NCBI GenBank assembly: GCA_003344405.1 | Contig: NOWV01000012.1 | Coordinates: forward strand, 620,001 to 684,000 | Length of the DNA: 64,000 nucleotides | DNA from: Trichoplax sp. H2 | Taxonomy: Eukaryota | Direction: 5' to 3' | Shown here: piece after piece, positions 6,243-56,260 of the stretch | Layout of the letters: each line of letters begins with the position of its first letter | Position numbering within the stretch: the first letter of the stretch is position 1 | Notes under the pieces: model-generated | What the model saw: only the letters and a program-made list of their open reading frames with translations | What the model was told of the DNA's origin: nothing | Database searches by the model: none | Translations under genes and position numbers: made by a program

Positions 6243-9200
6243 TTATGAATTATGCAAAGCTGATCTCGTTTTACTTTTACAACTATTTATTCGATTTATC
6301 GGTAGTGGTGGAGGTGGTTTTGTTGGCGGTGGTCGTCTACCTACCGCTAAATTAATGCAGGACGCTTGCATGATTGAACTTTTCGGTCTCTCTGGTATAG
6401 CGGGTGGACTACTATATAATGACCGCGATCTTGATAAATTTGTTGATCCAATTAAATTTTTTTGTCGACTCTGAAGAGGCGGCGATGATGGCATAGCACG
6501 TAATGATTGCGGCCTAGGCAAATCCCTTGATTTCAGTCCATCACTCAATGATAGTGGTCTTTGCAAATTCGTATGTCGCACCATACCTTTATTATTCTTG
6601 GATACCTGTAGATTAGTCTGTCGGTTCGGTATAGCCGGCGGCAATTTACCGCACAATGATCGAGACCTTGACAAATTCGTTAAATTCCTTGATTTCAGTC
6701 CATCACCCAACGATAGTGATTTTTGCAAATTCGTACGTTGCACTATACCTTTATTATTCTTGGATACCTGTAGATTAGTCTGTCGGTTCGGTATAGCCGG
6801 CGGCAATTTACCGCACAATGATCGCGACCTTGACAAATTCGTTAAATTCCTTGATTTCAGTCCATCACCCAACGATAGTGATTTTTGCAAATTCGTACGT
6901 TGCACTATACCTTTATTATTCTTAGACACCTGTAGATTAGTCTGTCGGTTCGGTATAGACGGCGGCAATTTACTGCACAATGATCGAGACCTTGACAAAT
7001 TCGTTAATCCCGCTGTGTCCGTATTGATTGATCGTGAAGTAGTGGTTACCGGCGAATTTATATATCTATCTGGCTTACGATCTAGTAATTAATAAAATAG
7101 GTTAAACTTGCAATACGCAATGAGAGCTGTAAATATATTTAATCTTTCTACTGCTCTGAGCCCTCACTGAAATGTTGAAAATTTATGGTATTTTCATCAC
7201 TATTGCAGTAATAAATTTTACGAAAATTATGATATGTACAGTATAGTACCGCATGTTATCTTTTCCTTATTCTAATAGTCGGAACTTACTAGTTACAGAT
7301 CCCTTTCGATACTCCGGAATAAATGTAGCATCCATGTTTTTACTTGCTTCATTAAATACTACCGGATCAACAATTCGTACATTAGCTTAAATACTGTATA
7401 TTAAAAATTTTCTGCAAGTCAAGATGGCATTAATAATCTGTTTTTTCTATTATAATAATTTTTAAAAGTATAGCACTTGGCGTCATCTTACCAAAAGATC
7501 TATCTCTAGCTATTGGTGAAGTTATTTTCGAATTTTCACATTCAGGAAAGATCTTTCCACAAATGGAACCTTGACGTTTAGTACTGCTAATTGATGAAGC
7601 TCTTGAAGAACGACGTTGACCTCTCTGACTCAAAATGTAAGAGTCGATGGAATCTGTACACCGAGAAACTTTCTTGCCGTAGAAACTTTCTTGCATTCGT
7701 CGTTGCTGATTGGAGCAACAACAGAATGCTATTTTGGTATAGCACTCAATCATGGCATTAATGACAAAAAGAAAGAACCTTAGGATAAGCCGGAATAAAC
7801 CACAATATCTGTGTGATAAAGCGCGATTTCCTTCCCATGTAATTGAACTACATGGAAACCATAATCGATACCTCTGTATGTACAATGTAACAAGAATAAC
7901 CGGAGTTATGATAAAACCAATCAGAGATGATCGGATTGCTATGGATGAAAGTAATATTAACCCAAGTGTCTGAATTATACCTTAAATTAGAAATAATAAT
8001 AACAATTTTCTTAATAAATTAGTTTAAGAAGGTTAGAAGTTACAGTGATAATAAAAGTAACAATGATTTGACTGCTATAGAAGCCACTTACCTAAATTAG
8101 AAATAATAAAGCCAAGTAAACTAGCACCCAAGATTGCTAGTAAACTATTCATGATACTTTTTAAAATATCTTCCTCTTTCCTTTCTAGCTCTCCTACATA
8201 TTGTATAGCCTTTATCCTGCAGATATTATTTACCAAACTAGCTTCTCCTTTAACTAATTCATCCAACGGAGCACAATGCTTATCATTAGCTGATTGGCAG
8301 CAGATCAAGCAGGAAGATGATGAGCTACTATCCTTAGCATCTTTGCTATTATTTCTTGCATAATTATTATTGGGGCAAGAACATGCACTTAATCCAGATA
8401 TTGAACAAATAGATCGTTGACATGTACCGGCAATGCATGATTTATGATCATCACAAACTGTATAATCATCTTTAAGTTTGGCTTTGGGGCAAGCTGATCC
8501 AACAAGGTGGCCATTGCAGTAAGATTTTACAGCACATTGTGTTTCGTTTTGACAAAGGTGATGTTCACGAATGGTAAAATAGTGACAGGTTGCATCATTG
8601 CAGCAAGGCCCTTGAGATGGACTACAAACAGCATGCTGAGCTAATTGACATGTCGATGGGTTACAGCAATAATCCTGACATTCTCCAATTGTTCCACAAT
8701 CACATTGTTCGTATGGTTCAACAATTTTATTACCACAAGTTGACTTTGAGGTAGTGGTTTGCGCATTTACTTTAAAACATTCCATTGAACGCGAACGGAT
8801 CACTTTAGCCATGGCTTGTACGCTGCAGATAGAAAATTGCATTTGATCTAATTCTGTCGCATTGATAACAATTCCAGACATAAAAAAGGGTATATTGGTA
8901 GCATATCGTTTACAACGAGTTTCTGAATCGTGTACAGCGCCAAGGCTATGAGCTAATTCATGTATCATAACATACGGAAATAATTTATGGTCATGGATAT
9001 TGAAGTTAATGAGAGCTGTATTCATCGATTTTCGACGATCATAGCTATGATGATGATAATCAAAAGTAGAGCATAAACCTGTATTTTTGTTTGTTGTACC
9101 AATCCAAGACAATCCGTTTACACTATAGCGATCATTATTAGTTAAATAATATGCTAAGCAATATTCACTGTGATTATGCAATGAAATTCTTTCTAAATGA

Positions 9201-9757
9201 TGGTAAGCGTTATCAAATGACGGACTTTCTTGTTGAAATTCGCCAATAGTTAATCGATCAATATAAAATGTAAAATTATCACTTTTTTGATCTTGATTAA
9301 AATCTATTACAGAAAATACACGATTGACCATTTTAATGGTATCATAAATGTATTGGCGAACTTTTGTAATGTGGAATAATTGTAATGCACGGACAAAGGT
9401 TTGATCCGCGTGTATAAAAATGCCACATCGTCGACTATTGCGATTATTATCGGGACCATGTCTACTCACAGCTGATCTTTTCGATCTTCCTGACTTCATG
9501 AAACGTGTTTTCCGATCGTCGGACACCATTTGTACGATATCGCCATCTAATGATTTTTGCAATCTTTCCAAATGAAAATTGATTTCCATCTTTTTATGAT
9601 AAATGGTCGAGTGGCAGTGATAAACTTTAACTGTCGAGTTAATATCATCAGTAGAAGCATTGAAACTTTGAAAAGATTCCCTTTTGTTGATGTGTGCACT
9701 ATAATATCTTGATTCCAGTAGAAAAAATACCAATAGTATGGATGGTAAGAAATGCAT
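6243..9757 (-). CDS. ADAM10/17-like metalloprotease-disintegrin, 3 exons (8092-9757, 7492-7980, 6243-7081), ~997 aa
   Basis: Signal peptide, furin site RSKR, zinc motif HELAHSLGAVHD, Met-turn, disintegrin start CGNKIVEPYEQCDCG and Cys-rich region. Donor G|gtaagt at 8091 with acceptor ttaag at 7981, and donor G|gtaaga at 7491 with acceptor actag at 7082, are all phase 1. They join the ORFs at 8075-9757, 7430-7885 and 6243-6998 without stops. Confidence 0.85.
6522..7007 (-). repeat. Coding tandem repeat, 162-bp (54-aa) unit x3
   Basis: cg(a/c)gaccttgacaaattcgttaa recurs at 6661, 6823 and 6985. The unit is NLSRSRSLCGKLPPAIPNRQTNLQVSKNNKGIVQRTNLQKSLSLGDGLKSRNLT. Confidence 0.95.
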
Positions 9758-11077
9758 TCTTCATAGTTTTTGATCGAAAATACTTCAAAAAAATAACGAA
9801 GATAAGATTCGAATGTAGAAGTAAAACTATTGCGACAATTAATAAATGAATACTACAGTAATTTTCTACTTATATCTGTGAGGGCCAGTCTAAACAGACG
9901 TAACTAGTCTAGAGCTGATCACGAAACCGTTTGTAACTTCTATATTTGATAATGAGCTCTATCAAATAGAGACTGTATGATTGAATCCCGTATTACAGGA
10001 ACGTCAAAGATTAAAAAATCTACCCTTTCATACAAGAGTTATCATCCAAGTCAATTATAAATTGTAAAAAATTAGTTCAAACTTATTTTCTTCTTTCTAT
10101 ATAAAAGTATGCTACCAAAATTTGTATGTATTTAGGATGAATAAAAATAATGTTAAATATACTTTGACGGTAGGGTAATTTATGGAAAGTCAACATGGAC
10201 AATTTTTACCTAATTTATCATTCGCTTTGGCTCTATTTTCTATGTTTGTAATTGGAATGCTTCGAAATTGACGTAAATATAATCTTAGTCATGTAGATAT
10301 ACCACGGTATAGCTACAATAAGACTGTATTCTTTTTTATGACTTGACTTTATACGTACATGGAGTCTGATCAATAAAAGACTATGATATTTAAGTAGGAA
10401 CTATATGCTAACGATTACCCAATCTTAGAATGACTTTCATTATCGCTTATATTAAGAAATGCAATTAATCATTGCAAGTTTTCTATGAGTTATAGCCGAG
10501 AAAATATAAATAAAAAAATTTTATATTTACTTTATAGTCTGCAATATGAACTGGATGATATGCGTATCTTTGCCACTTTTCCGATGGTCATAATTGTGAA
10601 AATATGAATAAAAACTTTGGTGCTACTGTATAGGTATGCAATACTAGAATAAACTGTATGATGCGCGTATCCCTGTAACTTTTCCGATAGACATAGTTCT
10701 AAAAGTAAGCGTATACGTAAATAAATAAATAAAAATAATCTATTTATATGAATACAGTATATAATGTGCAACATAAACTGGACGAAGTGCGTAGCCTTGC
10801 AACTTTTCTCACAGCTATAGCTGTGAAAGTAGAACTAAGAATTGATCACTTTTTTATGCTATAAGACCTGAAAGATGAGCGTATCTCCTCGTTATACATT
10901 TTCAGGGTAATCATTTTAATTTTAATAACTGTTTTCTACGAGGAATACGCGTATTGTCATCTATTAGCCCTGCGATCTCTTTACAAACGGATACGCGCAT
11001 AGTAGTAATAATAATGGTATAATGTCATTAACCGATATAATGGGATTTGAAAGTCAAATTGCTACTTTAGCCCATAC

Positions 11078-25890: not shown

Positions 25891-27290
25891 TTAACAATTT
25901 GGTACGTAAGCAGGAGGTAGACCGGTAGGCTTCGATTCCATAGATTGTAGCGAGGGATAAAGGTTAAGAGGAGGCTGGGTAGAAGCGGCGTTGTCATCAA
26001 TAGGTACTTTCTTGATGTCAGTACTTGATTCTGTCTGATATAAAGTGCCAGTGGCATTGGAAGATTGATTCTTTTCTTCGATGACAACCGCTAGCAAATT
26101 TTGACGCTCACGCATAGCTTCGTTAACTTCACGAACCAAATAGGGCATGCGGATAATATCGATTAAAAATCCAAACGAAAACAAGCCAAATGTAATCGAG
26201 TAGATTGTTCCCCAAAGTGGTCTTCCTAAATAGAAGTGCTGCAAACCCAACATTCCGAACGGGAATGTCAAAATGTAAGCGTCGTCTAACTTTTTTTCGG
26301 GGCTAGGATTTTCATCATTTGCCCTTTTGACTAGTATTGGCATACGGAAAAAATCCACTAGCCAACCAACTCCTCCCATGCCAAAGGTGCATAAATAGGC
26401 AATTCCAAAAAAAGTGTCACCCAAGTAGAAATGATGAGCACCTAAAATTCCCAACACCCAGGTAAGATAAGCATCATCTAAATGTTTAATTTGCTTTTTA
26501 TGAATAGCTTCGGGGCATTTTTCTAGCTCGATTGCTCGCTCGTTGGCATCTGCCACTAATTTAGGCATTCTAAAAATATCATAAAGCCAGCCAATTCCAA
26601 ACATGCCGCAGGTGAAAGAATATGCGGTTCCGAATCCTTTCCTGTAGGCAGAAAAATCAGAAAGAAGTATCTTATCAGTTTCAAGATCCATAATGTCATT
26701 TATAATTTCTAGTAGACAATGTTAGTGACTAGTACTATTTTAATTTAAATTAAATTATCGATGATATCGTAAAACGAAATAGTGGACTGCGTTTGATTAT
26801 ACACATGATGATAAAGGTATGCAGATAAAGTTTCGTTAGAGCATGTCTTTTTCAACTACGATTGCGTAAGCTTTATGAAAAGGTAGGATGAAATTTATCC
26901 ATATCATAGAAACTGTTCTTACCTTCCTAAATAGAACTGATGTAGTCCAAAACATATACCCGCAGGGCCTAAACAAAGTATGTAAGCATCAGCCAGGTTA
27001 TAAATTTTTCGAGATGATGGATTAGCGCGGCAATCATTGACTTTCTCCACCAGATTAGACATAAAAACGAGATCGTATAACCATCCAAGACCAAAGAATC
27101 CTCCTGAAAATAAATACGCTACTCCAATTAAGGATTGACCCAAGTAGAATCGATGCGCGCCAATCAATCCAAGTGGAAATGCCCACAAATAAGCACAAAT
27201 AAGCGATTTACGGCGAATTGGTAAGACCTGGTCGTGTTGTTTATCTTGATCATATAGGTGATTTTTTAATTCGATCTCCTTCTTCGACAT
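25891..27290 (-). CDS. 4xTM2-domain membrane protein, paralog A (exons 26923-27290, 25891-26641; 372 aa)
   Basis: Four repeats of AY-x(6-10)-G-x-Hx/QH-FYLG...G..GWL.D...M..LV...N. Phase-2 GT-AG intron in YLG-R. Tail contains LYPSL and LPPAY. Confidence 0.9.
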
Positions 27291-27977
27291 ATCGGATAGT
27301 TGGTAATGCAGTGGGTAGCTACTTGCAAAACAACAATTTTATCTCTCGAATGAGATAAATTAAGTTCAAATGGCTGCACACTGGACAGGCCTGTGTTATC
27401 CACACTAACGATGATTAAAGTTAATGAAAGAAGAACCAAAGCTAATTTGCAGGCGAACTATTGCTGATAACCTTTATATACCTTCTAGATATGGTAGATA
27501 ACATTGTTGTTTTCTTTGTTTGAATTAGATTATCCAATGATCAACTCCTATATTAGCATGTTTATCTAAAAGCTTATTGTTCACAACGAGATAACCGATA
27601 CTATTTATCAGCATAGAAATTGTGACGGAGCTAGTTATCACTTTATACACTCTATAGCGTTCAGTATGGAACAATTCGTCGACGTTGGACGGACGGTCTT
27701 CACAAATCGTTTTTATTGACTTCATAAACTGAGCAAAAATTTCAAGACGACGAAACCTAATCGCCTTAACATTGGCAATATCCTTCAAAGAATCATCCCA
27801 AGTTGGCTTATGGCTGCTGTTGGCAGTGACTATCACACGAGTAAAAGCAAGCTAATGACGGATTTGTAGCCTTGCTATTTATTGATATCATCAACTACCA
27901 ACAGCTACCAATGATAAGATTGAAACATTACGTAAGAATAAATTAACATCAGCTATTCAAAGTGGCTTTGTCTGGAC

Positions 27978-28029: not shown

Positions 28030-29904
28030 TCTATACTTAAAAGCATTACTGCATACAGTTCATTGAGCATCTACCCTGCATGTCTATGCAGTTGGTTGGA
28101 GATTTTTTCAATCTTTATTTTCTTTCGGCTATGGTTATTTCTGAATTGAAGACAGTTTAAGTCATTTCAGGTTGCACCATTTACTCTGCATGCACTTAGA
28201 AAGGATGCTGGCAATATGTTTGAACTAGTCATAAAAAGTATCTTCAAGTGCTTCTAGTGCACTAGTATAGTACAGGAATTTACCGTTTAGTATAACCCTA
28301 TTTTTAGAAGTTTTACTGTAGACATTATGTAATGGGATTAAATGCCTTTATTACATATAGACTGATATAGTATACATAATATCATACTGGTACAATAAGA
28401 AAATGGACTTTGTTCACTGTTGCCAACGCCTTGAAAGTCCATATCAAGGATCTTTTGATTAATACTGTACAGTATTTTTAGGATTTGATGATTATCGTTA
28501 ATAAAATAGCGAACCACGAGAGGAAAACTCAGCATACTTTTTAATTATTAACATGCGGATGCATGTAATTACCGTGTGAGAGCATTACGTCAAAGGTGTA
28601 ATTTAGTGGGAGTGGGGTTAGGATACGTCCAGAAAATAGTTTATACCCACAGCCACGATTTACGCCTTCGTGCATGATATTTACTGTATTTATTTATAGA
28701 TGAGAGTACGCATACTTGACTGTTTTTTAGACCAAGAACTACTGAAGTTCAAATAATTAATTAATAATCTTAAAAATGCACTTCCATCTAGTGTAATACG
28801 AATGGTTCTCAATCAAACGCAACGCCGTCGATGCACAGTTGAGCTGATACTTAATTGCTCAAGCCACGTAAATGCAGACACTGCTATCTGGACTGACGTT
28901 TTACATTACCAACACACTGATATAAGTTAAACATTAAGAGTGTAAGATATCGGTTAGAACTAGTTTTAAACCTGCTATTATCAAGCTATGATAATATTAC
29001 ATTAACATTATGTTGGTCTCGTACCAATCTAACCAGGTAGTGTGCAGTTACATCTATAACTAGAACGACAACACTGTTCTTGATATATCAATACTACATC
29101 AACCTTTATAACTGCAAATAATGCGTAAAAACAACTAACTAGGATAATAATATACACACAAGGTGTAAATTAGTTATAAATAATCGTTTGGATACGTGAT
29201 TGCATACGTTAGCACACGCTCCACTTCAGGTATTGGTTCGATACATGGAAGAAAATCAACTCGTAATGTATCAATTTGTTCAAAAATGAAATGAAATTTA
29301 GCTCCGTGTTTATTTATTACTTGTTACCATAGAGGTGGGAGTAGGGTCCGCCGGCCTTGAATTTATGCATACGTCATTTTATTCGTATATCATTGGTTGA
29401 TAGATGCAGCCAGCGGAAGACTTTATTAGAAAGCAAATGTAAATAATAATTGGAATTCAATAAGAGCAGCATGTAATTTATTCATACGTAATTTATATAG
29501 CATCTTACTGGCTAGAATCATTACAATCAATGATATAGCGTTGGTTGCTGCTTCCATGGCATTGGATAGAAGAGTACCTTATCGATCAGCACGCTTATGT
29601 CAATAAATAATATCTACTGTCACTGAATTTTCCTTTTTTATGGTAGTCCTTTTATCAGCTGTTGGCAGCATTTGATTGATTTGATTATAATGCCAATGGG
29701 AAGGATTATTTATTTTCATTATCAGCCGTTAATATCATTGTCTCCCTCCCATTCTTAAACGATCAAAGCCGTAAGGCAAATAAAAGGGTTCTGTCCTGTA
29801 CTATTTAAGGCACAGCTCTGCCAAGATCGAAGTAAAATTTTCGCTACAGTATAAGCTAACTTTCACTTAAGATAAAAAAAGCGTTTGCCCATTTTTCATC
29901 AATC

Positions 29905-31294
29905 ATGTCGAAAGGAATGGAATGCAATAGCCCTAATAATTATAATCCAATGGGTGATCGACTGCAAGTCGTTCGTCCATCTCTACCGAAAAAATCCATT
30001 GCTGATGCCTACTTATTGGCATTCCCTCTTGGAATTCTTGGCTTACATCGCTTCTATCTGGGTCAAAAGTATCTTGGGCTTGCTTATTTTTTCTCTTTTG
30101 GATTATTCGGCCTTGGATGGTTGCATGATCTTGTCTTTATGCCTAGCGTAGTCAATCATGCTAATCGTTGCCGAGCTCTTCCACAAGAGAAGAAACCATA
30201 CAGTTTACTCGAAGCCTATATCCTTTGCCTCAATCCAGCTGGAATTTTTTTCGGTTTACATCAATTCTATTTAGGAAGGTAAACAAAATAGCAAGTACTA
30301 TTTCTACGGACTGTTTGCCAATGAATTGATTAACAAAGTAATCCATGCAATATACGTAGTTCTGATTAAAATCTAAAATCTATTACCATAGCGTTGATTA
30401 AATTATTATTATAACAAGTTCGATGGACGCGTAGTCAACATTTTAAGAACTATTTCTGTCCTGTATTTGTTCATTTACCATCATGATTTCTTTGACTGTA
30501 TGGCTAGGAAGGGATTTGGTACCGCTTATTGCTTTACGATAGGCTTATTTGGTGTTGGTTGGCTTTCCGATATACTGAGGATGCCTAAGTTAGTTGCAGA
30601 CGCCAATAAGCGAGCAATGGAAATACAAGCTAATCCTGAAGTTGCTAAGCAAAAGAAAGCTAAGAAAATTGACGACGCTTACATTTTATGCGTATTCGGA
30701 TTTTTAGGACTTCATCATTTCTACTTGGGCAATATTGGATTTGGTTTTGCCTATTTATTTACCATGGGTATGGGAGGAATTGGATGGTTAGTCGATTTCC
30801 TTCGCATGCCAATACTAGTAGCCAGAGCCAACGACCCTAATCCAAGCCCCAAAAAGCATCTAGATGACGCTTATATTTTAACATTCCCCCTTGGAATGCT
30901 GGGTTTACAACACTTTTACTTAGGTAGACCTGGTTGGGGTGTTACTTATATGTTTACGCTTGGCTTGGCTGGCTTTGGATTCTTGGTTGATCTTGTTCGT
31001 ATGCCCTTCTTGGTTCGCCAAGTTAACGATACTATAATTGAAGGTCAAAATTTACTTGGTGTTGCTATTGATTCAAACTATAATGGTAATCAACCTCAAT
31101 TTGGCAACAATCCCTCTGTGAATGCCTCCAATATGCCTTACCAAGCACCTAACAATGTTATGGAGACTAGGAAAGTACCAATAGATAACGGAAATACTGT
31201 ATTAAATTATCCACACAAAGATGTATATCCACCTCCACCATCAATTAGTACTGAACCACCACCTGCTTATGAATCAAAGGTTAACTTACGCTAA
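29905..31294 (+). CDS. 4xTM2-domain membrane protein, paralog B (exons 29905-30278, 30508-31294; 386 aa)
   Basis: Same four TM2 repeats and same intron position (AG|gtaaac...ctag|G). Tail contains PPPAY. Confidence 0.9.
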
Positions 31295-45166: not shown

Positions 45167-46330
45167 TTAAACCAATTTTAATAGTAATGTAAAGTATAAC
45201 ACTGTTTGATAAAATAAAGCAAAGACAAGCAATATCGGAACAAATGTATATAGGCCTATGATTACCATAATTAACATCAGCACTTCTAAAATGAAAATTG
45301 TCAAGGTATTACATGCAAATGCAACATCCTCTTTATTAATGTCGAGATTGTTTTCTGCTATGTAAGCTTTTTGTTCCCTCATTGCCAACGCAGCAGCTGT
45401 AGCAACGATTGTGAGACTAGCAATTATAGGCAGGATAATAAATAGTACATATAAGCCAGTAGATAAAGTTGGATCGATTGATGTCGATTGATGGTATGTC
45501 CAGCCAATGATACAAACGGGCACACTAGTGATAGCGGTTAAGCCAAGAGATTCAAAGATGTATAATACTACCGTTTTCGCAGCACTATTACCCTGATCAT
45601 TACTATTAACATCGCCTTCATCATAATGCAGCTGAAATCCAAGTAGTCTTAACGAGGTCGCATAACCAATCATTAGCATAAGTACGACCTTTGCTAGCAA
45701 ATCGAAATCAAAGCCATAGACCGCTAACAAATTAGAGCATACAGTATTATTACTAATATAATTAACTCGGCATTGGAGGCATCTTAGTCCCATGGGCATA
45801 TTTTCTAAATGTCTTAAAGCAATAGTTAAACAAGTCAGTGGAACTGACTGTAATAACATTGGTTGAGGTATTGATATTAAAGCTGCTAATCGAAAGACTT
45901 TGGAATCGTACAATTGCGATGTGTAAATGATTAATGCCGAGCATCGTATAAATAGGAAAAAATTGACAATCATGGTAATGCTAAAGATAAAAATATATGT
46001 TACGTATACGCCTTCGTATTCATGCAGTAAAATTGAAATGCGATATATGCCACAACATCGAGAGTGACCAGATTGGCTACATGGTGAAGTATTATAAAAA
46101 TGACCATTTGTATCTTCCAATCGATGAAGAAAATTGTTGAAAAGAGTCGATTGAGAAAGAATTCTACCGTTGATAATTGTATCCGTTAAAACCAGACAAA
46201 TGAAAAGAAAATTCCACAGCCTAATTTGGTTTTTATACCGCTGAGTATTACTTATTTTGGTCGATAAATCTCTCAAGATTCGAAAAAACTTGCCGCAGCT
46301 ATTTTCCACACGATCGACTAAAACTGCCAT
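45167..46330 (-). CDS. Uncharacterised intronless multi-pass membrane protein (387 aa)
   Basis: Long ATG-initiated ORF in AT-rich DNA with about 7-8 hydrophobic segments and Cys-rich loops. No family motif recognised. Confidence 0.8.
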   Translation of the reverse strand: MAVLVDRVENSCGKFFRILRDLSTKISNTQRYKNQIRLWNFLFICLVLTDTIINGRILSQSTLFNNFLHRLEDTNGHFYNTSPCSQSGHSRCCGIYRISILLHEYEGVYVTYIFIFSITMIVNFFLFIRCSALIIYTSQLYDSKVFRLAALISIPQPMLLQSVPLTCLTIALRHLENMPMGLRCLQCRVNYISNNTVCSNLLAVYGFDFDLLAKVVLMLMIGYATSLRLLGFQLHYDEGDVNSNDQGNSAAKTVVLYIFESLGLTAITSVPVCIIGWTYHQSTSIDPTLSTGLYVLFIILPIIASLTIVATAAALAMREQKAYIAENNLDINKEDVAFACNTLTIFILEVLMLIMVIIGLYTFVPILLVFALFYQTVLYFTLLLKLV

Positions 46331-47626
46331 ATTGGACTGTACACTAGTTAGTACATAACGTTATTTACATTACGCCAGTTTTAGAGTGGGTTTTAATGGC
46401 ATCCCCTTCAAGATACAATGAATGCAAGTAGAGAAAAGTGATCAGACGAATACTGGTATCTACCCAAATTTTACTTTATCGTAGATCGTAGAAATGGTAT
46501 TCCAAGTCATATCTGTGTCCAATATTACAGCCAATACCTCGTACTGTATGATGCATACCTTCAGTACTTGTGGTATGAATCATGAATGGACAAGATTGTA
46601 TCTATATGTTAATAGATACTACTATGTACATTACTGGATGATGTCCAGTTTTTGTCAACTCACAGCCCAGGCATCAATATGGTTCTAATTAATTCAATCA
46701 ATATTGCATCGTGATCATTTTGTTGAAATGATAGAGGTCACAAGAAACCACCTCTACGGTTATAAAACTCGTGTTTGCTGATCACCGTAAATCTACAGTA
46801 CTGTACACCAGATTTACAATGTGAGTGAGCTTGTAGCCATAGAGACCGAGGAAGAAGTAAAGTACCGTCTGGCGTCGATTTTTTCCCCCCCTCCATTTTT
46901 AACAGCTCTCCATTAGGAGATACCTAATGGAATCGTTCAATGGAGTAAAAACGCCACCCGAACCCGATGAAATGGTTGATCTTCTAACCCGAAATAAGTG
47001 CAATTGCTATACAACCACTCCATCACCATGGAAATTCTTCACCCGAATCTCCCCTCGAGTCGAATTCATGTCGCGGTTTCACGTTGACTTTTTCTTGACT
47101 GATACCTAGTACTGTCTATGATTGGATTACTCGATGCACCTATTACCTCATAGTACTGATGTTGTATCATGATCAGGGCTATGAATAATAATAATAGCAT
47201 GTTTTAATCCAAAGGATTCGGAGTTTCCTTTGAATAGTACTTCAAAATAATCCAACATTTAGCTTCCAAATGTCATTAAAGACCTACCGAGTGCTGCGCT
47301 AATTTGATAGAATAGTAGAAAGACCCCCAAAACGATAGGATAGGGCCTCCAAGTTGTACTCATTCTAGTACGGTACAGTACGCGATGTTATCCAATGACG
47401 TCATTGTTGTCCAACAGTATTGTACCGTTATAACAAAATAAAATGAAGCATTTGGCAATCGAGTCAAAGCGCTATCCACTGTTCCGCGTATACATCGCCA
47501 TTCCATATAGATTGACTAGCATGGGACTCGAGAGAAAATAGACAATATCATCCAACGACTGGATAGTGGCAACACCTTTCTTCTTCTCCAAATCCACTAT
47601 CCAAATCGTCCAACATAGCAACAGCA

Positions 47627-50090
47627 ATGATCGATTCTTCAAGTGCCAGTGCTTCAGTCATCATTGGAAATGTTAGCCGTCCAAAAAGTCAAAAATCCGT
47701 GGCTGATGCCTATTTGTGTGCTTTCCCTCTTGGTTTTTTAGGGTTACATCGATTCTATCTTGGTCAACCACTCTTAGGATTGGCATATTTATTCTCGGGG
47801 GGATTTTTCGGCGTGGGTTGGTTGCACGATATGCTCATGATGCCTAAAATTGTCCAACGAGTCAATCATCGGCTGGCTAATCCTCAAATTAGCAAGGAAT
47901 TTAGTTTACTTGAAGCTTACGTACTTTGTTTGAATCCTGGTGGCTTACTTTTTGGATTGCATCAATTTTATCTTGGAAGGTACAGTATACAGCATAGCGC
48001 ACCAGTTTTATTGTATTGGCTACTGCCGATACGATTTATACTAGTTTGAGCTTTGCATGCCCTTGCGGTCATTAATTAACCTAGCTCTTTAAATTAAAAT
48101 ACCATCAACAACAATACAACAGCTGCAGATCATGGTCAATTTTGTTATCATTATTTCGATATCGTGTACTACTCTACTGAGCTACATCATAGTAAACAGG
48201 AACAAGCTATTCGTTCAATTTAAATGACTGATTGAAATCGCTTTATCATCAGATTATACAATATACTGTACTTTAGTCATACTCGTACACTATTTTACAG
48301 TAATACATCCAATTCGTATTCATTTTCCTTTTAATGAACAACTTGTTATAGTAGTGCACACTCAATTTACTGAATCGATTTGTTCTAATCATATTGTTGT
48401 CGTATAACTTTAGTGTAAACCTATTTTGCTATGCTATGTAAGCGAGCATACACTTACAATTATAAAACATGTAAATCAATGTTTAGAAGTTCAATATGTC
48501 CAATGATGATGACATCCATGCGAGATAAAACATTCAAAGATGGACGGGAGGGGGTACTTCCATATCATTAATGTAGATGATGAACAGTTACATAGTTATC
48601 AATTGCAATATGCAATAGATCGTATTAGTGGGCCTACTAAAATACGATTAAATGTAGTGCAGGAGTTTATATAATAATACTTTTGCGAATGAACTGGAGT
48701 ATATCAAATTACCATTAACTTCTAGAAGTCCATGAAATTACTCACAGTTGATTTATTAAACCTAGAGGAGCTACAATACCTATAACAAATAATCTACTGT
48801 ATATTCGTATTGCCTTAGACCGTACGTAGGTAGAAAGCTGATCGCATACATGAGTCAGTTTTTTAGATATTACATCAAATTTTTAACGTATATACTATAT
48901 GTATTGCAATCTAGAGCTATAGCCTATAATTAAAGTAGGTCGAAAATAACCATCATTACTTTGGATCAGTACCCAACCTATAAAAAATATATCTGTTACT
49001 GTTACTTATTCTTTAAAATCTTAAATATTACTGTATAAATTACATCATGTAGGACAGTACCTACAAGTGTACGCACAATTTATTGTACTGTATATTTCCA
49101 TTGCTATGCTTACAGTTTACATACATATACGTATACGACTCTATTGTAACTGTTATTATAAAGATCAAAACTGGAAACAGATGCAATATCAAATTAAGTA
49201 GTGTTGAAGGAAGTAATTGTTGTAGATAGCATTACTTATACCCTAACAATATCTGCTTTCAATTTCATAGGAAAGGATTTGGGACAGCGTACTGTTTCAC
49301 GGCCAGTTTTGCCACTATAGGATGGTTTTTAGATATCTTCAGAATGCCGCTATTGGTAGCAGATGCTAGGCAACGTGTACACGAATCAGAAGAATCTCCC
49401 GTCGCTACTATGAAGAAACGACCAAAGAGACTAGACGATGCATATGTTATGTGGGTTTTTGGATTTTTAGGTGTCCATCATTTCTATCTTGGAAATATTG
49501 GTTTTGGTTTTGCTTATTTGTTCACCATAGGGATGGGGGGAGTTGGTTGGCTAGTTGATTTTTTCCGCATGCCTGTGCTGGTCAGAAGAGCTAATACACA
49601 TCCTCCAAGTCCTTTCAAGCATCTAGATAGTGCTTACGTCTTAACTTTCCCGTTAGGCTTTCTTGGATTGCAGCACTTTTATCTAGGCAAACCGGGCTTA
49701 GGTCTTACCTACTTATTGACGTTTGGGTTAGTTGGCATTGGATTTTTGGCCGATATTATCCGTATGCCATTCGTGGTCCGCGAAATCAATGAATCAATCG
49801 CCGCTGACCAATTGATTACTGTTACAGTTGACGAAAATACCGAGAACCAAAGCGTTAATTCTAACATAAATTCTCTTCAGGCTACCAATATACCCTATCA
49901 ATCACCGCAACCACCAACTGATTTACCTAATGAACAAGCTAAATCTCTGTTAATTACCGAAACTAGTGCAGATACGATTAACGCTGCAGCTGCTCCGCCA
50001 CAACATCATTTGCCTGAGCCTTATGGCCCACCTCCAACATATCAATCCATTGTTGATGACAATACTCCCGAAATTTCCCGTAGAAAATAG
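47627..50090 (+). CDS. 4xTM2-domain membrane protein, paralog C (exons 47627-47979, 49271-50090; ~390 aa)
   Basis: Same four TM2 repeats and same phase-2 intron (AG|gtacag...catag|G). Tail contains PPPTYQSI. Confidence 0.9.
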
Positions 50091-53000: not shown

Positions 53001-55003
53001 AATACACTAGCAGAATTAGAGTTATTCTAATACTTTCAATTTCACAAAATTTATCCTATTGACATCTGGGGTTACTCGCATATACAATATTTTTTACCCC
53101 AAGATAATGCAATATTAGCGTTTCAATCAAGCCTACAAGACTTCTACAGCTAAATATCGCTGCAATTTTTATTCATCTTATTTGGTAAGTTAAGTGATTC
53201 TTTGTTAGATATGGATGAAAAACTATAGCATTATTATATACATCTAGATAGACTACATAGTTGGAGTACTAAATGTATTAAATTTGAAGATATTGCTTAC
53301 TAATGTTAGGCTAGGTTTAATTTGGTATAGAATGATCATTTTAGGTAATGAATTCACAATTATTTCTAATGAATGCTATAATTTTTTGAAAGAGGATCAC
53401 TTACCTCATAGTAGCACCAAGTAACTGCAATAAATTCGTAAATTAGATTAGCTTTCCGATGAATGTAACACAGTATAGGATAAAAATTTAAAAAGAAGAT
53501 GTTAATATATTCTGTATAGATAAATGAATCACCATCTACGTATCTTCTCGGCTATTGAAAATTAGATATCATGATTTAATAGTACGTATATACGGTATTT
53601 TGGATTATGATAAAATGTTTTCTTTTAATAGCGTTTTCGTGTAGTATGTATGGAAGACAAGATATGCAAATAAATTGATAAGCTAACCTTACTATCGCTA
53701 ATTGCTAGTGATAGTTTAGACAGCTTGTTGATAAGGATATCCAATACTTGTACATTACATGGGAATGTCTTTTTCTATGTTCAAACTACATTTCCGTTGC
53801 TAAATTTTTTGAATGTTTTTAAGTACCGTAGTTATGACAATTGCTAAGGAGTTTTTCTTTCTCGAATATGTGCTCCATCAAAAAGGAATAATTAGATATA
53901 TGAATAAACAGCTACTTCATTCTGAAAATCTCATCCCTAATTTTCTAAACAGAAGCAACATAGTGTTCTTGAATAAAATATTTTATCTGAAAATAAATAA
54001 CTAGTGGTGATAGATAGAAATTTTATTGGGTAACTATTCGATGTAAATGTTGAATTTGATTCAATTTAAGTAATAGATCAACATAGATGTATGTAAAGTA
54101 ACGACTTGTATAGAATACTCTGAAATAGGTCTATCGGTTATTAGAAAGGTATAGTAGATAGATAAGATAATTTTTTATTGTTTGACAGTTGTATAGAAAG
54201 CGATAGATAAGAATGTTTACATTATATTCAAAATTTCTATCGAGGTGATAGGATAGATAAAGATTACTTTACAATCATGTAACATTTACACAGAAAGTAA
54301 TAGATTAGAATATTTGATAATTGATAACATTCATGGCCTTAGCATATGAATAGAAAATCATAGATAAGAATGTATTATATTTGTTCAATACTTGTGTAAA
54401 ACTGACACATGAATATAAAAGTATTTACATAGTTCAGCTCGTGCGTACAGCATATACAGCAGAAAGTGATTGACGAGAGCATTTATATCACTACAACATT
54501 TGTTTGGAATCTACGCACTATTTCATGAAATGTATAACACGAAAGTAGGTAGCAATCAGATATTTGTTCAATAGACGAGAATTATTAATATTCATGTTTT
54601 AAAAAAGAGAACGACATATATGTACTGCATATACACTATAGTTAAACAATTTGATAAGCTCATTGCGAATGGGTACGGTCGACGAGTACAGTATACGAGT
54701 TACTCAGAACTCCTATATTATAACTGGCGCTATTTGAAATTAATACTGATTGTAATCAGAAAAGGTTCAAATTATAGCCGTGTGATATATAAACATCTTC
54801 GTTATTACACGGTAGCCAATTTGATATAGGACGATAATATCATTTTCTAAGACAGAATAGCTTATCTAGAGCTATTGTTGTCATGACTTCTTCTATTAAC
54901 AAAGTTGTCATTTTGAATCCCTTTTATAGAGTTAGCATCGAACAGCTACAACCAAGATCGCAAAAATTTTAAGTTGCAATAACTTCAAAGTTAAGCAATA
55001 AGA

Positions 55004-56260
55004 ATGGGCCATCAAAATAATAGCCTTTTCCTCCAAGTCAAAGCAACTCCAACCCCTCCAAGTATCATCGGTGTACAAAATTGGGAATTTGTTTGTTTCA
55101 CAATATTATACAGTATCACTTTTATCCTAAGTCTATTTGGTAATAGCATCATGATTATTTCCATCATTCGTAATAAAACGAAAAATATGAGAGGCGCTAC
55201 CAATTATTTCATTGCTAATTTGGCCTTTTCTGATCTGTTAATTGCTATCTTTGTCATTCCCTATCGTTATAATGAATTCATTTTTAAACGTTGGCAATTA
55301 GGTCGATTACTATGCGCTTTGTTGCCAACCATTGAGAAATCGCTCTTTACAGTCTCTATTTTACAAATATTAGCTATTGCTTATGCACGCCATCGTATTG
55401 TTGTCTTTCCATTTAAAAAAGCATTAACCAAACGGCGTGCTGCTATTATTATATTCCTAGTATGGATCGTAGCTATTTCAGGAGCTATCCCAGTTACAGT
55501 TAAAATGCACTATGACAATATTTTCACTACTAAACGAGCACTTTATTGTGCACCATGGTGGTCATTTGCTTATCAACGTATATATTATCGTGTCTTGTTC
55601 TTTCTCAATGCTGTTCCCATGTTTATTACGTTTGGTATTTATGGCCACGTTTACTACGTTATGAGACGTCGTACCCGACGCAATAATAGCATTAATTCGC
55701 ACAATCCAGCAACTGCTGCTAGCCATCGTAGTATCTTAAAAATGCTACTAGTAATGCTATTATTAAGTTCATTGTGTTGGATACCCTACGGTAGCATGAT
55801 CTTTGTTCTCAGTCTTGTTATTCTTCGCCATCCAAAATTAACATTGATATTATCATTTTTAAAATGGCTTGCAGTCTTTAACTGCTGTCATAATCCATTT
55901 GTATGCTGGATATTTAGCCAGAATTATCGCCAAGAAATGATTTACGTCATAACATGCGATAAGCGAATATCTGTATTTGATCGTCGGAGACCTGATCGGT
56001 TTACCACTTCTGCCAGTACTCAAAGTAAAAGTATAATGTTGTCTAGCCAACGAAGTAAATCAGGTAGTTTTAAACTTTCACGCCGTACATTATCGTTTTT
56101 TGGAAGCTTTCGTCGTCAATCAAATCAGCAAAATAAAAGTAATAACGATGCTAATGGTAATCAACAGCAAATTCCTTCCAGACAAGTTCAAAAACCCCTT
56201 CAAAATCTGACTAATTGCTTAAGTTCTCCATTAATGCAAAGTAAGGAGGCTATGGTATAA
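55004..56260 (+). CDS. Class A (rhodopsin-like) GPCR, peptide-receptor-like, intronless CDS
   Basis: Seven hydrophobic helices; TM1 GN, TM2 NLAFSD, WQLG..LC, TM4 W, TM6 CWIPY, TM7 NP; Ser-rich C-tail. Confidence 0.93.
   Translation: MGHQNNSLFLQVKATPTPPSIIGVQNWEFVCFTILYSITFILSLFGNSIMIISIIRNKTKNMRGATNYFIANLAFSDLLIAIFVIPYRYNEFIFKRWQLGRLLCALLPTIEKSLFTVSILQILAIAYARHRIVVFPFKKALTKRRAAIIIFLVWIVAISGAIPVTVKMHYDNIFTTKRALYCAPWWSFAYQRIYYRVLFFLNAVPMFITFGIYGHVYYVMRRRTRRNNSINSHNPATAASHRSILKMLLVMLLLSSLCWIPYGSMIFVLSLVILRHPKLTLILSFLKWLAVFNCCHNPFVCWIFSQNYRQEMIYVITCDKRISVFDRRRPDRFTTSASTQSKSIMLSSQRSKSGSFKLSRRTLSFFGSFRRQSNQQNKSNNDANGNQQQIPSRQVQKPLQNLTNCLSSPLMQSKEAMV

What the first reader, a model, noticed from the sequence alone, without database searches (positions are those of the whole stretch)
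6243..9757. Unusual ADAM protease: possibly multi-pass membrane anchor plus a long cytoplasmic tail
Seen: the apparent single-exon ADAM ORF ends at a perfect donor (G|gtaagt, 8091). Two phase-1 introns join it to the two downstream orphan ORFs, giving ~997 aa. After the Cys-rich domain comes a ~55-residue nearly uninterrupted hydrophobic block (SIMNSLLAILGASLLGFIISNLGIIQTLGLILLSSIAIRSSLIGFIITPVILVTLYIQ). A second hydrophobic or amphipathic stretch ends in CCC (possible palmitoylation), followed by a basic Ser/Pro-rich tail. Known: membrane ADAMs are single-pass type I proteins. Inference: this sheddase may have 2-4 membrane segments, an architecture I do not recognise. Retention of intron 1 would give a nearly tail-less single-pass isoform ending ...NLGKWLL.
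Basis: partly seen in the sequence, partly recalled or inferred. Interest (0 to 1): 0.8.

Follow-up and report, generated by a model that had tools for sequence, protein, structure and literature searches.

The report
Placozoan ADAM10-like protease, odd membrane anchor
This is an already-annotated Trichoplax ADAM10-like cell-surface protease whose membrane anchor is unusually long and has a second membrane-seeking helix, but whether it crosses the membrane more than once remains unproven.

Summary
The gene is real and lies on the minus strand of a Trichoplax (placozoan) window. With that exon, the window's translation equals public protein RDD45935.1 letter for letter (Trichoplax sp. H2, 1020 aa, named ADAM10).

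The ectodomain is ADAM10-like (PDB 8esv/6be6, E about 1e-41).

The unusual anchor is real. It has a 57-residue hydrophobic block (aa 535-591), a basic Cys-containing loop, an amphipathic helix (aa 617-641), then CCC and a basic stretch. Another placozoan lineage conserves it (55% identity, no gaps over 105 aa). None of 78 non-placozoan ADAM10-like hits has two hydrophobic spans.

Multi-pass topology is not shown:
- AlphaFold2 gave one continuous helix for the block in both runs.
- The loop's positive charge favours a cytosolic position.
- The second helix is too polar to insert on its own.
- No spliced RNA junctions could be obtained.

Verdict: a known gene and a new variant of a known kind, of moderate interest. 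I favour a single crossing plus a palmitoylated in-plane helix (about 0.45) over a true three-pass anchor (about 0.3).

The parts
8092..9757 (-). Coding exon 1 (aa 1-555 plus 1 nt): signal-peptide-like start, short pro-region, catalytic domain, disintegrin domain, shortened Cys-rich domain, stalk, and the first 21 residues of the hydrophobic block
   Evidence: ORF. Pfam Reprolysin_5 at 8.5e-13 and Disintegrin at 9.7e-11. Identical to RDD45935.1.
9476..9487 (-). RSKR (aa 91-94), a furin-type site at the end of a short pro-region
   Evidence: Regex. Its role is inferred from what is known of ADAMs.
8927..8962 (-). Zinc-binding motif HELAHSLGAVHD (aa 266-277)
   Evidence: H266, E267, H270, G273, H276, D277 and M293 sit in nearly invariant columns of the 27-row alignment.
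7981..8091 (-). Intron 1, 111 nt, phase 1, GTAAGT...AG. Read-through adds KWLL and then a stop.
   Evidence: Both public models use the same junction. The exon-1 ORF of another placozoan also stops 4 codons after the same Gly (P0002).
8093..8109 (-). Copy 1 of a perfect 17-nt direct repeat (TTATTATTTCTAATTTA), the last bases of exon 1 before G|GT
   Evidence: blastn E 3e-4 within the window; the next best match of the intron anywhere in the 64 kb is 13 nt.
7983..7999 (-). Copy 2 of the 17-nt direct repeat, the last bases of intron 1 before the AG acceptor
   Evidence: The repeat plus GGTA aligns 21 of 22; 1 of 500 shuffles reached its score.
7492..7980 (-). Coding exon 2 (aa 556-718): the rest of the hydrophobic block, the basic Cys loop, the amphipathic helix, CCC, and the start of the tail
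   Evidence: 55% identical with no gaps over 105 aa to P0088 from another placozoan.
7874..8155 (-). Hydrophobic block aa 535-591 (57 residues), interrupted in the DNA by intron 1
   Evidence: Kyte-Doolittle 19-residue windows at or above 1.6 from centre 540 to 584. Predicted as part of one continuous helix.
7799..7873 (-). Loop aa 592-616 (RYRLWFPCSSITWEGNRALSHRYCG): K+R 4, D+E 1, with Cys599 and Cys615 conserved
   Evidence: pLDDT below 50 in both models.
7724..7798 (-). Amphipathic hydrophobic helix aa 617-641, with polar positions R619, R623, N630, E634 and K638
   Evidence: KD peak 1.97. muH 0.45-0.61 for windows starting at 606-623. Conserved in P0088. Helix 608-655 at pLDDT 63-76.
7715..7723 (-). 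CCC (aa 642-644), followed by SNQQRRM.ESFY; candidate palmitoylation site
   Evidence: CCCSNQQRRM is identical in P0088. Palmitoylation itself is inferred, not tested.
7359..7491 (-). Intron 2a, 133 nt, phase 1
7290..7358 (-).
   Evidence: Present in both public models. Coordinates.
7082..7289 (-). Intron 2b, 208 nt, phase 1
   Evidence: One X4 contig (6960-7249) runs into it unspliced.
6243..7081 (-). Last coding exon (aa 742-1020) with stop codon at 6245-6243: a basic Ser/Pro/Asn-rich tail
   Evidence: Disordered in AlphaFold2 (pLDDT about 25-33). Contigs of the RNA-labelled run X8 lie at 6432-6683 and 6982-7045.
6520..7007 (-). Tandem repeat of 162 nt x 3.0 (95% matches, no indels), i.e. 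three 54-aa units each carrying RSRSLC and KLPP.IPNR

Best explanation
This is the Trichoplax ADAM10-family sheddase gene, public protein RDD45935.1.

Gene and protein:
- It has four coding exons and encodes 1020 aa.
- The ectodomain has a complete zinc site, a disintegrin domain and a shortened Cys-rich domain, so it should work as a cell-surface metalloprotease that cuts other membrane proteins close to the bilayer. That function is inferred from homology.

The anchor differs from other ADAM10-like proteins:
- The stalk and the transmembrane helix have merged into one 57-residue, only moderately hydrophobic, Gly/Ser-rich helix.
- A positively charged Cys-containing loop follows, then an amphipathic helix that ends in CCC and a basic stretch.

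My preferred reading, which is inferred and not shown:
- The chain crosses the bilayer once inside the long helix, with the N-terminus outside and the C-terminus inside.
- The extra hydrophobic turns stay buried at the outer interface or against a partner.
- The RYR...HRYC loop is cytosolic.
- The amphipathic helix lies in the plane of the inner leaflet, pinned by palmitoylated CCC.
- The 380-residue disordered tail, with its repeated PxxPxR and RSRSL motifs, recruits SH3-type and phospho-binding proteins, as other ADAM tails do.
- The long block may have grown by a small internal duplication of the segment that codes for the transmembrane helix.
For: Identity:
- The window's translation with the 69-nt exon equals RDD45935.1.
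- The best hits in the protein database are ADAM10 from many animals at 25-34% identity.
- PDB by sequence: ADAM10 8esv and 6be6 at E 8e-42 and 1e-41, against ADAM17 at about 1e-18.
- Foldseek on the model: 6be6 at 5e-27, 8esv at 6.5e-26.
- The zinc-motif residues and M293 sit in nearly invariant columns.

The anchor is real and under constraint:
- Exon 2 is 55% identical with no gaps over 105 aa to P0088, including the part that the 2008 model spliced out.
- The end of exon 1 is conserved in P0002.

The anchor is unusual for the family:
- 0 of 78 non-placozoan hits have two hydrophobic spans; 73 have one span, 28-39 residues by the window-union measure.
- On a rough insertion scale, 71 of 77 controls have a 21-residue window below 0 (median -1.27). 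This protein's minimum is about +0.1 to +0.4 (scale values recalled from memory).

Single crossing with an in-plane helix:
- The block is one unbroken helix in 2 of 2 AlphaFold2 runs (506-592; 522-592).
- The loop has K+R 4 against D+E 1, with the same balance visible in P0088.
- Helix 617-641 has muH about 0.5 and rough insertion costs of +4 to +6.
- In the MAFFT alignment the ADAM10 transmembrane helix falls on aa 547-571 and the ADAM10 stalk on aa 535-546.

Tail:
- Four P..P.[RK] motifs, six [RK]..P..P motifs and four RSRS motifs lie in the tail.
Against: - 57 hydrophobic residues are far more than one crossing needs, and I have no tested account of where the extra residues sit.
- The two halves of the block resemble each other (score 34 against shuffles at 21.4 +/- 4.1; 20 of 2000 shuffles reach it). 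That would fit a duplicated transmembrane helix forming a hairpin.
- CCC followed by a basic stretch directly after a 25-residue helix is the usual look of the cytosolic end of a true transmembrane helix.
- The conserved Cys599/Cys615 pair in the loop could be an extracellular disulfide.
- AlphaFold2 confidence in this region is only 50-84 with the 27-row alignment and 49-69 with the 4-row alignment, and the method ignores the membrane.
- No dedicated topology predictor was available.
- No spliced RNA reads were obtained for any junction.
Confidence: 0.45

Rival explanations
1. It is a true three-pass ADAM. The 57-residue block forms a transmembrane hairpin (about aa 538-560 going out to in, about aa 563-591 going in to out). 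The Cys loop is extracellular and disulfide-bonded. Helix 617-641 is a third transmembrane helix whose polar face packs against the hairpin. That puts CCC and the tail in the cytosol.
For: - The block length is about two helices.
- The two halves resemble each other (20 of 2000 shuffles reach the score).
- An odd number of crossings keeps the SH3-motif tail inside the cell.
- CCC plus a basic stretch follows the third helix, and CCCSNQQRRM is identical in P0088.
- Cys599 and Cys615 are conserved.
- All candidate helices are only marginally hydrophobic, as is common for helices of multi-pass proteins. That generalisation is from my own knowledge.
- No other ADAM10-like hit has two spans (0 of 78).
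Against: - No helix break is predicted at the supposed turn in 2 of 2 AlphaFold2 runs.
- The supposed turn (SNLGIIQT) carries no charge, while the supposed outside loop has K+R 4 and D+E 1. This goes against the positive-inside rule.
- Helix 617-641 carries R, R, N, E and K, and costs roughly +4 to +6 on the recalled insertion scale.
Confidence: 0.3
2. The long hydrophobic helix is mainly a protein-protein interface. It would either self-associate or pack against a multi-pass partner, much as ADAM10 works with TspanC8 tetraspanins and ADAM17 with iRhoms. Only part of it would be lipid-exposed, so the protein is single-pass but obligately complexed.
For: - Small and polar residues (G, S, A, T, N) recur every 3-7 positions along the block (sequence).
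- Hydrophobicity is marginal compared with 71 of 77 controls.
- R572 inside the block is conserved in P0088.
- Solved ADAM10-Tspan15 and ADAM17-iRhom complexes are the closest structures.
Against: No partner or self-association was tested here. muH along the block is low (0.02-0.2), so there is no clear single polar face.
Confidence: 0.15
3. It is a gene-model artefact. The main mRNA would not join all these exons as modelled, for example through intron-1 retention giving ...NLGKWLL-stop, or through another acceptor. The 57-residue block would then never exist in one protein.
For: - No junction-spanning RNA was obtained.
- The two public models disagree with each other inside exon 2.
- An X4 contig runs unspliced across acceptor 7082.
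Against: - The exon-2 reading frame is conserved without gaps in another placozoan.
- Both public models use junction 8092/7980.
- The H2 models came from an evidence-based MAKER run fed with RNA-seq transcripts (PMC6057997, passages read). Evidence for this particular gene was not seen.
- Donor GTAAGT and an acceptor preceded by a T-rich tract are good sites.
Confidence: 0.1

Closest known systems
RDD45935.1, 'Disintegrin and metalloproteinase domain-containing protein 10' of Trichoplax sp. H2 (and XP_002112917 / TRIADDRAFT_56535 of T. adhaerens)
   Same: RDD45935.1 is letter-for-letter the window's four-exon translation. The T. adhaerens record is 99% identical over exon 1.
   Different: The T. 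adhaerens 2008 model starts at a later Met, so it has no signal peptide. It also splices out aa 583-634, which are conserved in another placozoan. Neither record's name mentions the anchor, and no paper containing these accession names was found.
ADAM10 / Kuzbanian (PDB 6be6, 8esv)
   Same: - It is the best match by sequence and by fold.
- It shares the HExxHxxGxxHD motif and Met-turn, the disintegrin domain and the start of the Cys-rich domain.
- Neither has an EGF domain.
- Both have a Pro-rich cytoplasmic tail with SH3-type motifs.
   Different: - Identity is about 25-31%.
- Pfam's ADAM10-type Cys-rich model PF21299 was not detected at E <= 0.1, and an 18-residue piece with two conserved Cys is missing.
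- The pro-region is about 90 aa with no Pfam propeptide hit.
- The anchor has a 57-residue block plus a second helix, instead of one strongly hydrophobic helix.
- The tail is about 380 aa with 54-aa tandem repeats.
ADAM17 / TACE with iRhom (PDB 8snl, 8snm)
   Same: It has the same domain order and is the second-best match (E about 1e-18; Foldseek 1e-19 to 1e-20). From my own knowledge, ADAM17 has a membrane-binding juxtamembrane segment and depends on a multi-pass partner that grips its transmembrane helix.
   Different: It is much less similar than ADAM10, and ADAM17 is single-pass. Any functional parallel to a partner-gripped or membrane-dipping stalk is a lead, not a result.

Membership tests
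ADAM (M12B adamalysin/reprolysin with disintegrin domain) | Zinc site HExxHxxGxxHD with a downstream Met-turn | tested here: met
   HELAHSLGAVHD at aa 266-277. These residues and M293 sit in nearly invariant columns. Reprolysin_5, _3 and _2 score above their Pfam cut-offs.
ADAM (M12B adamalysin/reprolysin with disintegrin domain) | Disintegrin domain after the catalytic domain | tested here: met
   PF00200 at E 9.7e-11, 42.7 bits against a cut-off of 35.1, aa 347-424.
ADAM10 subfamily | Closest to ADAM10 by sequence and by fold | tested here: met
   - Named hits with E <= 1e-22 are ADAM10 or Kuzbanian.
- PDB: ADAM10 at 1e-41 against ADAM17 at 1e-18.
- Foldseek: 6be6 at 5e-27.
- One-to-one orthology was not tested. 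The genome is not held, so other Trichoplax ADAMs could not be listed.
ADAM10 subfamily | ADAM10-type Cys-rich domain (Pfam PF21299) | tested here: not met
   Not reported at E <= 0.1, and not among the precomputed domains of P0001 or P0002, though it is listed for most other hits. The alignment shows the first Cys positions kept and an 18-residue piece missing.
ADAM10 subfamily | Long prodomain (Pfam PF01562) with a cysteine switch, removed at a furin site | tested here: inconclusive
   There is no PF01562 hit. The pro-region is about 70 aa after the signal peptide, has one Cys (YHCHS), and ends in RSKR at aa 91-94.
Membrane ADAMs in general | Type I single-pass anchor: one strongly hydrophobic helix of about 20-25 residues | tested here: inconclusive
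   - There are two hydrophobic spans where 73 of 78 relatives have one and 5 have none.
- No window falls below 0 on the rough insertion scale, against 71 of 77 controls that do.
- AlphaFold2 shows two long helices and no hairpin.
- The number of crossings could not be determined with these tools.
Membrane ADAMs in general | Cytoplasmic tail with Pro-rich SH3-binding motifs | tested here: met
   Four P..P.[RK] and six [RK]..P..P matches in aa 779-1002. Binding itself was not tested.

The most novel reading that the evidence does not exclude
This is a genuinely polytopic ADAM. A small tandem duplication of the segment coding for the transmembrane helix would have produced a transmembrane hairpin, leaving the 17-nt repeat that brackets intron 1 as its trace. 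Together with a third, polar-faced helix, the hairpin would form a three-helix intramembrane module fused to an ADAM10-like ectodomain. Such a module could do in cis what multi-pass partners (TspanC8, iRhom) do in trans for ADAM10 and ADAM17, namely position and gate the protease at the membrane. It would be the first multi-pass member of the family, in one of the earliest-branching animal lineages.
Probability: 0.3. Interest if true: 0.7.

Novelty: new variant of a known kind. Interest (0 to 1): 0.4.

Why it matters
ADAM10 and ADAM17 are the main sheddases of animal signalling (Notch, EGFR ligands, TNF). Their activity depends on how their single transmembrane helix and stalk are held by multi-pass partners.

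A placozoan relative has an anchor that is itself extended and carries a second conserved membrane-seeking helix. It offers a natural experiment on how membrane positioning of the catalytic head evolved.

If it proves multi-pass, it would break a family-wide rule. If it is single-pass, it is still a compact case of a hydrophobic stalk plus a palmitoylated in-plane helix, which can be tested by simple topology assays.

The gene itself is already public, so the value lies only in the anchor.

Tried and rejected
RNA evidence for the junctions:
- One run search and one laying of four runs gave no joints.
- X1 and X2 are DNA-like. X4 is too fragmentary to tell DNA from RNA. X8 covers only two pieces of the last exon.
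- Parts without cover mean nothing.

Relatives of the anchor:
- The word-index search with exon 2 found only P0001 at 'longer' lengths and nothing at 'near' lengths.
- The exhaustive search found a single relative, P0088, whose cluster has one member.
- The ESM Atlas gave no usable hit for aa 525-665.

Paralogues and earlier notes:
- The window's genome is not held, so paralogues could not be counted.
- Earlier notes of this scan returned nothing.

Structure:
- AlphaFold2 on the whole protein and on aa 521-680 gave continuous helices at modest confidence. I treat this as inconclusive for topology.

Origin of intron 1:
- I tested the idea that intron 1 is a degenerate copy of the start of exon 2 (intron gain by tandem duplication).
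- Beyond the 17-nt repeat, the similarity is weak: score 16.5 against a background of 10.1 +/- 2.1, reached by 10 of 1000 real-sequence controls. It is also 25 nt out of register. I do not claim it.
- Intron 1 as a repeated mobile element is rejected for this window: the best other match in the 64 kb is 13 nt.

Other checks:
- The RPN13_C Pfam hit in the tail (24.2 bits against a cut-off of 39.3, no stretch passing) is rejected as noise.
- The plus-strand ORF 6475-7092 is the mirror of the tandem repeat, not a gene.

Literature:
- Three searches found nothing on this protein or on any multi-pass ADAM. Only listings were seen for those. Passages were read in PMC12166595 and PMC6057997.
- Supplements are closed. 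The H2 paper's supplementary tables might hold transcript support for each gene.
Full report
**What is there**

The window is AT-rich eukaryotic DNA (GC 0.28-0.39). On the minus strand, a 561-codon open frame (8075-9760) starts with MHFLPSILLVFFLL and carries HELAHSLGAVHD. Pfam finds reprolysin-type metallopeptidase models and a disintegrin domain above their cut-offs.

A protein search identifies the organism. The best hit is TRIADDRAFT_56535 of Trichoplax adhaerens (99% identity). Next is an unnamed 563-aa ORF at 65% identity, and then ADAM10 from many animals at 25-34%. The 90% cluster of the first hit also holds RDD45935.1 of Trichoplax sp. H2, 1020 aa, named ADAM10.

**The gene model**

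- Donor G|GTAAGT, with GT at 8091-8090.
- Acceptor AG at 7982-7981.
- Donor G|GTAAGA at 7491.
- Acceptor AG at 7083-7082.
- All are phase 1, and the join gives 997 aa.

When it is included, the window's translation equals RDD45935.1 residue for residue. The gene therefore has four coding exons, and it is already public.

The older T. adhaerens model differs in two ways. It starts at a later Met, and it removes aa 583-634 as an intron.

According to passages of PMC6057997, the H2 models came from an evidence-based MAKER run fed with RNA-seq-derived transcripts. I did not see the evidence for this particular gene, and supplements are closed.

**RNA evidence**

I could not obtain junction reads. 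Of the four runs laid:
- X1 and X2 have contigs running straight through the introns, so they behave as DNA.
- X4 has seven short contigs, one of which (6960-7249) crosses acceptor 7082 unspliced.
- X8, the only run on record as RNA, has two contigs in the last exon.
- No joints were reported.

Splicing therefore rests on the site quality, the two public models and cross-species conservation.

**Conservation**

An exhaustive profile-free search with exon 2 found one relative, P0088, a 234-aa ORF from a Logan contig. It aligns to aa 564-668 at 55% identity without a single gap. The aligned part includes the stretch that the 2008 model spliced out, so the H2-type model is the better one.

Conserved in P0088:
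- R572 inside the hydrophobic block.
- SLIGFI.TP, QRYR.W.PC and HRYC.
- The polar positions of the following helix.
- CCCSNQQRRM.ESFY.

Beyond that point the tails diverge.

The end of exon 1 is likewise conserved in P0002 (...KSILNSLLGILGAKLLGFVISNYG). P0002 also runs into a stop four codons after the same Gly, as expected if the intron sits at the same place.

**How unusual is the anchor?**

I used a Kyte-Doolittle 19-residue window with a threshold of 1.6.
- RDD45935.1 has two post-catalytic hydrophobic spans, aa 531-593 and aa 614-635. P0088 shows the same two.
- 88 proteins were held. I set aside 6 that lack the exact zinc motif and 4 placozoan rows.
- Of the remaining 78, 73 have exactly one span (28-39 residues by the same window-union measure), 5 have none and 0 have two.
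- Among the 6 rows set aside, P0081 (an ADAM15) has a weak second span (1.66) near its C-terminus.

This protein never goes below about +0.1. The anchor is therefore long but only moderately hydrophobic, and rich in Gly, Ser, Asn and Thr.

**Topology**

For a multi-pass anchor:
- The block is long enough for two helices.
- Its two halves resemble each other (IMNSLLAILGASLLGFIIS against ILLSSIAI-RSSLIGFIIT; score 34 against 21.4 +/- 4.1; 20 of 2000 shuffles reach it).
- CCC plus basic residues follow the second hydrophobic helix, as at the cytosolic end of many transmembrane helices.
- Two loop cysteines are conserved.

Against a multi-pass anchor:
- AlphaFold2 with a 27-row alignment predicts a single unbroken helix at aa 506-592 (pLDDT 53-84 by decade) and a second helix at aa 608-655 (63-76), with the tail disordered.
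- The fragment aa 521-680 with a 4-row alignment gives the same two helices at pLDDT 49-69.
- The loop between the helices has K+R 4 and D+E 1. The supposed hairpin turn has no charge.
- Helix 617-641 has a hydrophobic moment near 0.5, with R619, R623, N630, E634 and K638 on one face.
- In the MAFFT alignment the ADAM10 transmembrane helix falls on aa 547-571, and the ADAM10 stalk falls on aa 535-546, which here have become hydrophobic.

My weighting is about 0.45 for one crossing plus a cytosolic, palmitoylated in-plane helix. I give about 0.3 to a true three-pass anchor. The rest goes to a partner-buried helix or a model artefact. None of this is a measurement, and no dedicated topology predictor was available.

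**Family placement**

The closest solved structures are human ADAM10 (8esv at 8.4e-42, 6be6 at 1.2e-41), then ADAM17 (about 1e-18). Foldseek on the model agrees (6be6 at 5.4e-27).

Differences from ADAM10:
- Pfam's ADAM10-type Cys-rich model is not detected.
- An 18-residue piece with conserved Cys is missing.
- The pro-region is short, has no Pfam propeptide hit, and ends in RSKR.

Whether this gene is the ADAM10 orthologue or a paralogue could not be tested, because the genome is not held.

**Tail**

- It runs from aa 642 to 1020 and is 16% Ser, 11% Arg and 8% Pro.
- It is predicted to be disordered.
- It includes three 54-aa tandem units (162 nt x 3.0, 95% matches). Each carries RSRSLC and KLPP.IPNR, and a fourth degenerate copy follows.
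- The PxxPxR motif type is what other ADAM tails use to bind SH3 domains (from my own knowledge). Binding was not tested.

**Intron 1 curiosity**

A perfect 17-nt direct repeat ends exon 1 (8109-8093) and also ends intron 1 (7999-7983). In each case it sits directly before GGTA. No other 17-nt match to the intron exists in the 64 kb; the best is 13 nt.

This is the pattern expected if the intron arose from a small tandem duplication around an AGGT. However, similarity beyond the repeat is weak and out of register, and the intron seems to be shared with a distant placozoan. I leave it unexplained.

**Literature**

No paper in the searched library holds the accession names. Searches for Trichoplax with ADAM10 (13 papers, listing only) and for multi-pass ADAMs (listing only) turned up nothing on this architecture.

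**Verdict**

This is a real, publicly annotated gene. Its anchor is conserved across placozoans and atypical for the family. It is a new variant of a known kind, and multi-pass status is possible but unproven.

Noticed in passing
window 8093-8109 and 7983-7999 (minus strand): A perfect 17-nt direct repeat sits immediately before the donor G|GT of intron 1 and immediately before its acceptor AG. This is the signature expected of intron gain by tandem duplication around AGGT. Yet the intron position seems shared with a placozoan whose protein is only 65% identical, which makes a perfect repeat hard to explain.
   Followed up: partly
window 25891-27338 (-), 29860-31294 (+), 47567-50090 (+): There are three paralogous loci. 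Each has a 139-160-aa ORF with one TM2 domain followed by a 276-298-aa ORF with two matched TM2 stretches (Pfam PF05154, E 1e-17 to 9e-26). They are probably three multi-TM2-domain genes with one intron each. Two lie head to head and one is 17 kb away.
   Followed up: partly
window 54995-56260 (+): A single-exon 421-aa rhodopsin-family GPCR ORF (PF00001, E 1e-40) with a Ser/Gln/Asn-rich C-terminal tail.
   Followed up: partly
window 45167-46360 (-): A 397-aa ORF with several long hydrophobic stretches and no Pfam hit at E <= 0.001. It may be an unclassified multi-pass membrane protein.
   Followed up: no
window 7970-7973 (minus strand): A second good-looking acceptor (ttcag) lies 10 nt inside exon 2. 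If used with the same donor, it would shift the frame and end the protein about 40 codons later. That would give a short-tailed form with only the first hydrophobic stretch. This was seen by eye in the sequence, and there is no evidence that the site is used.
   Followed up: no
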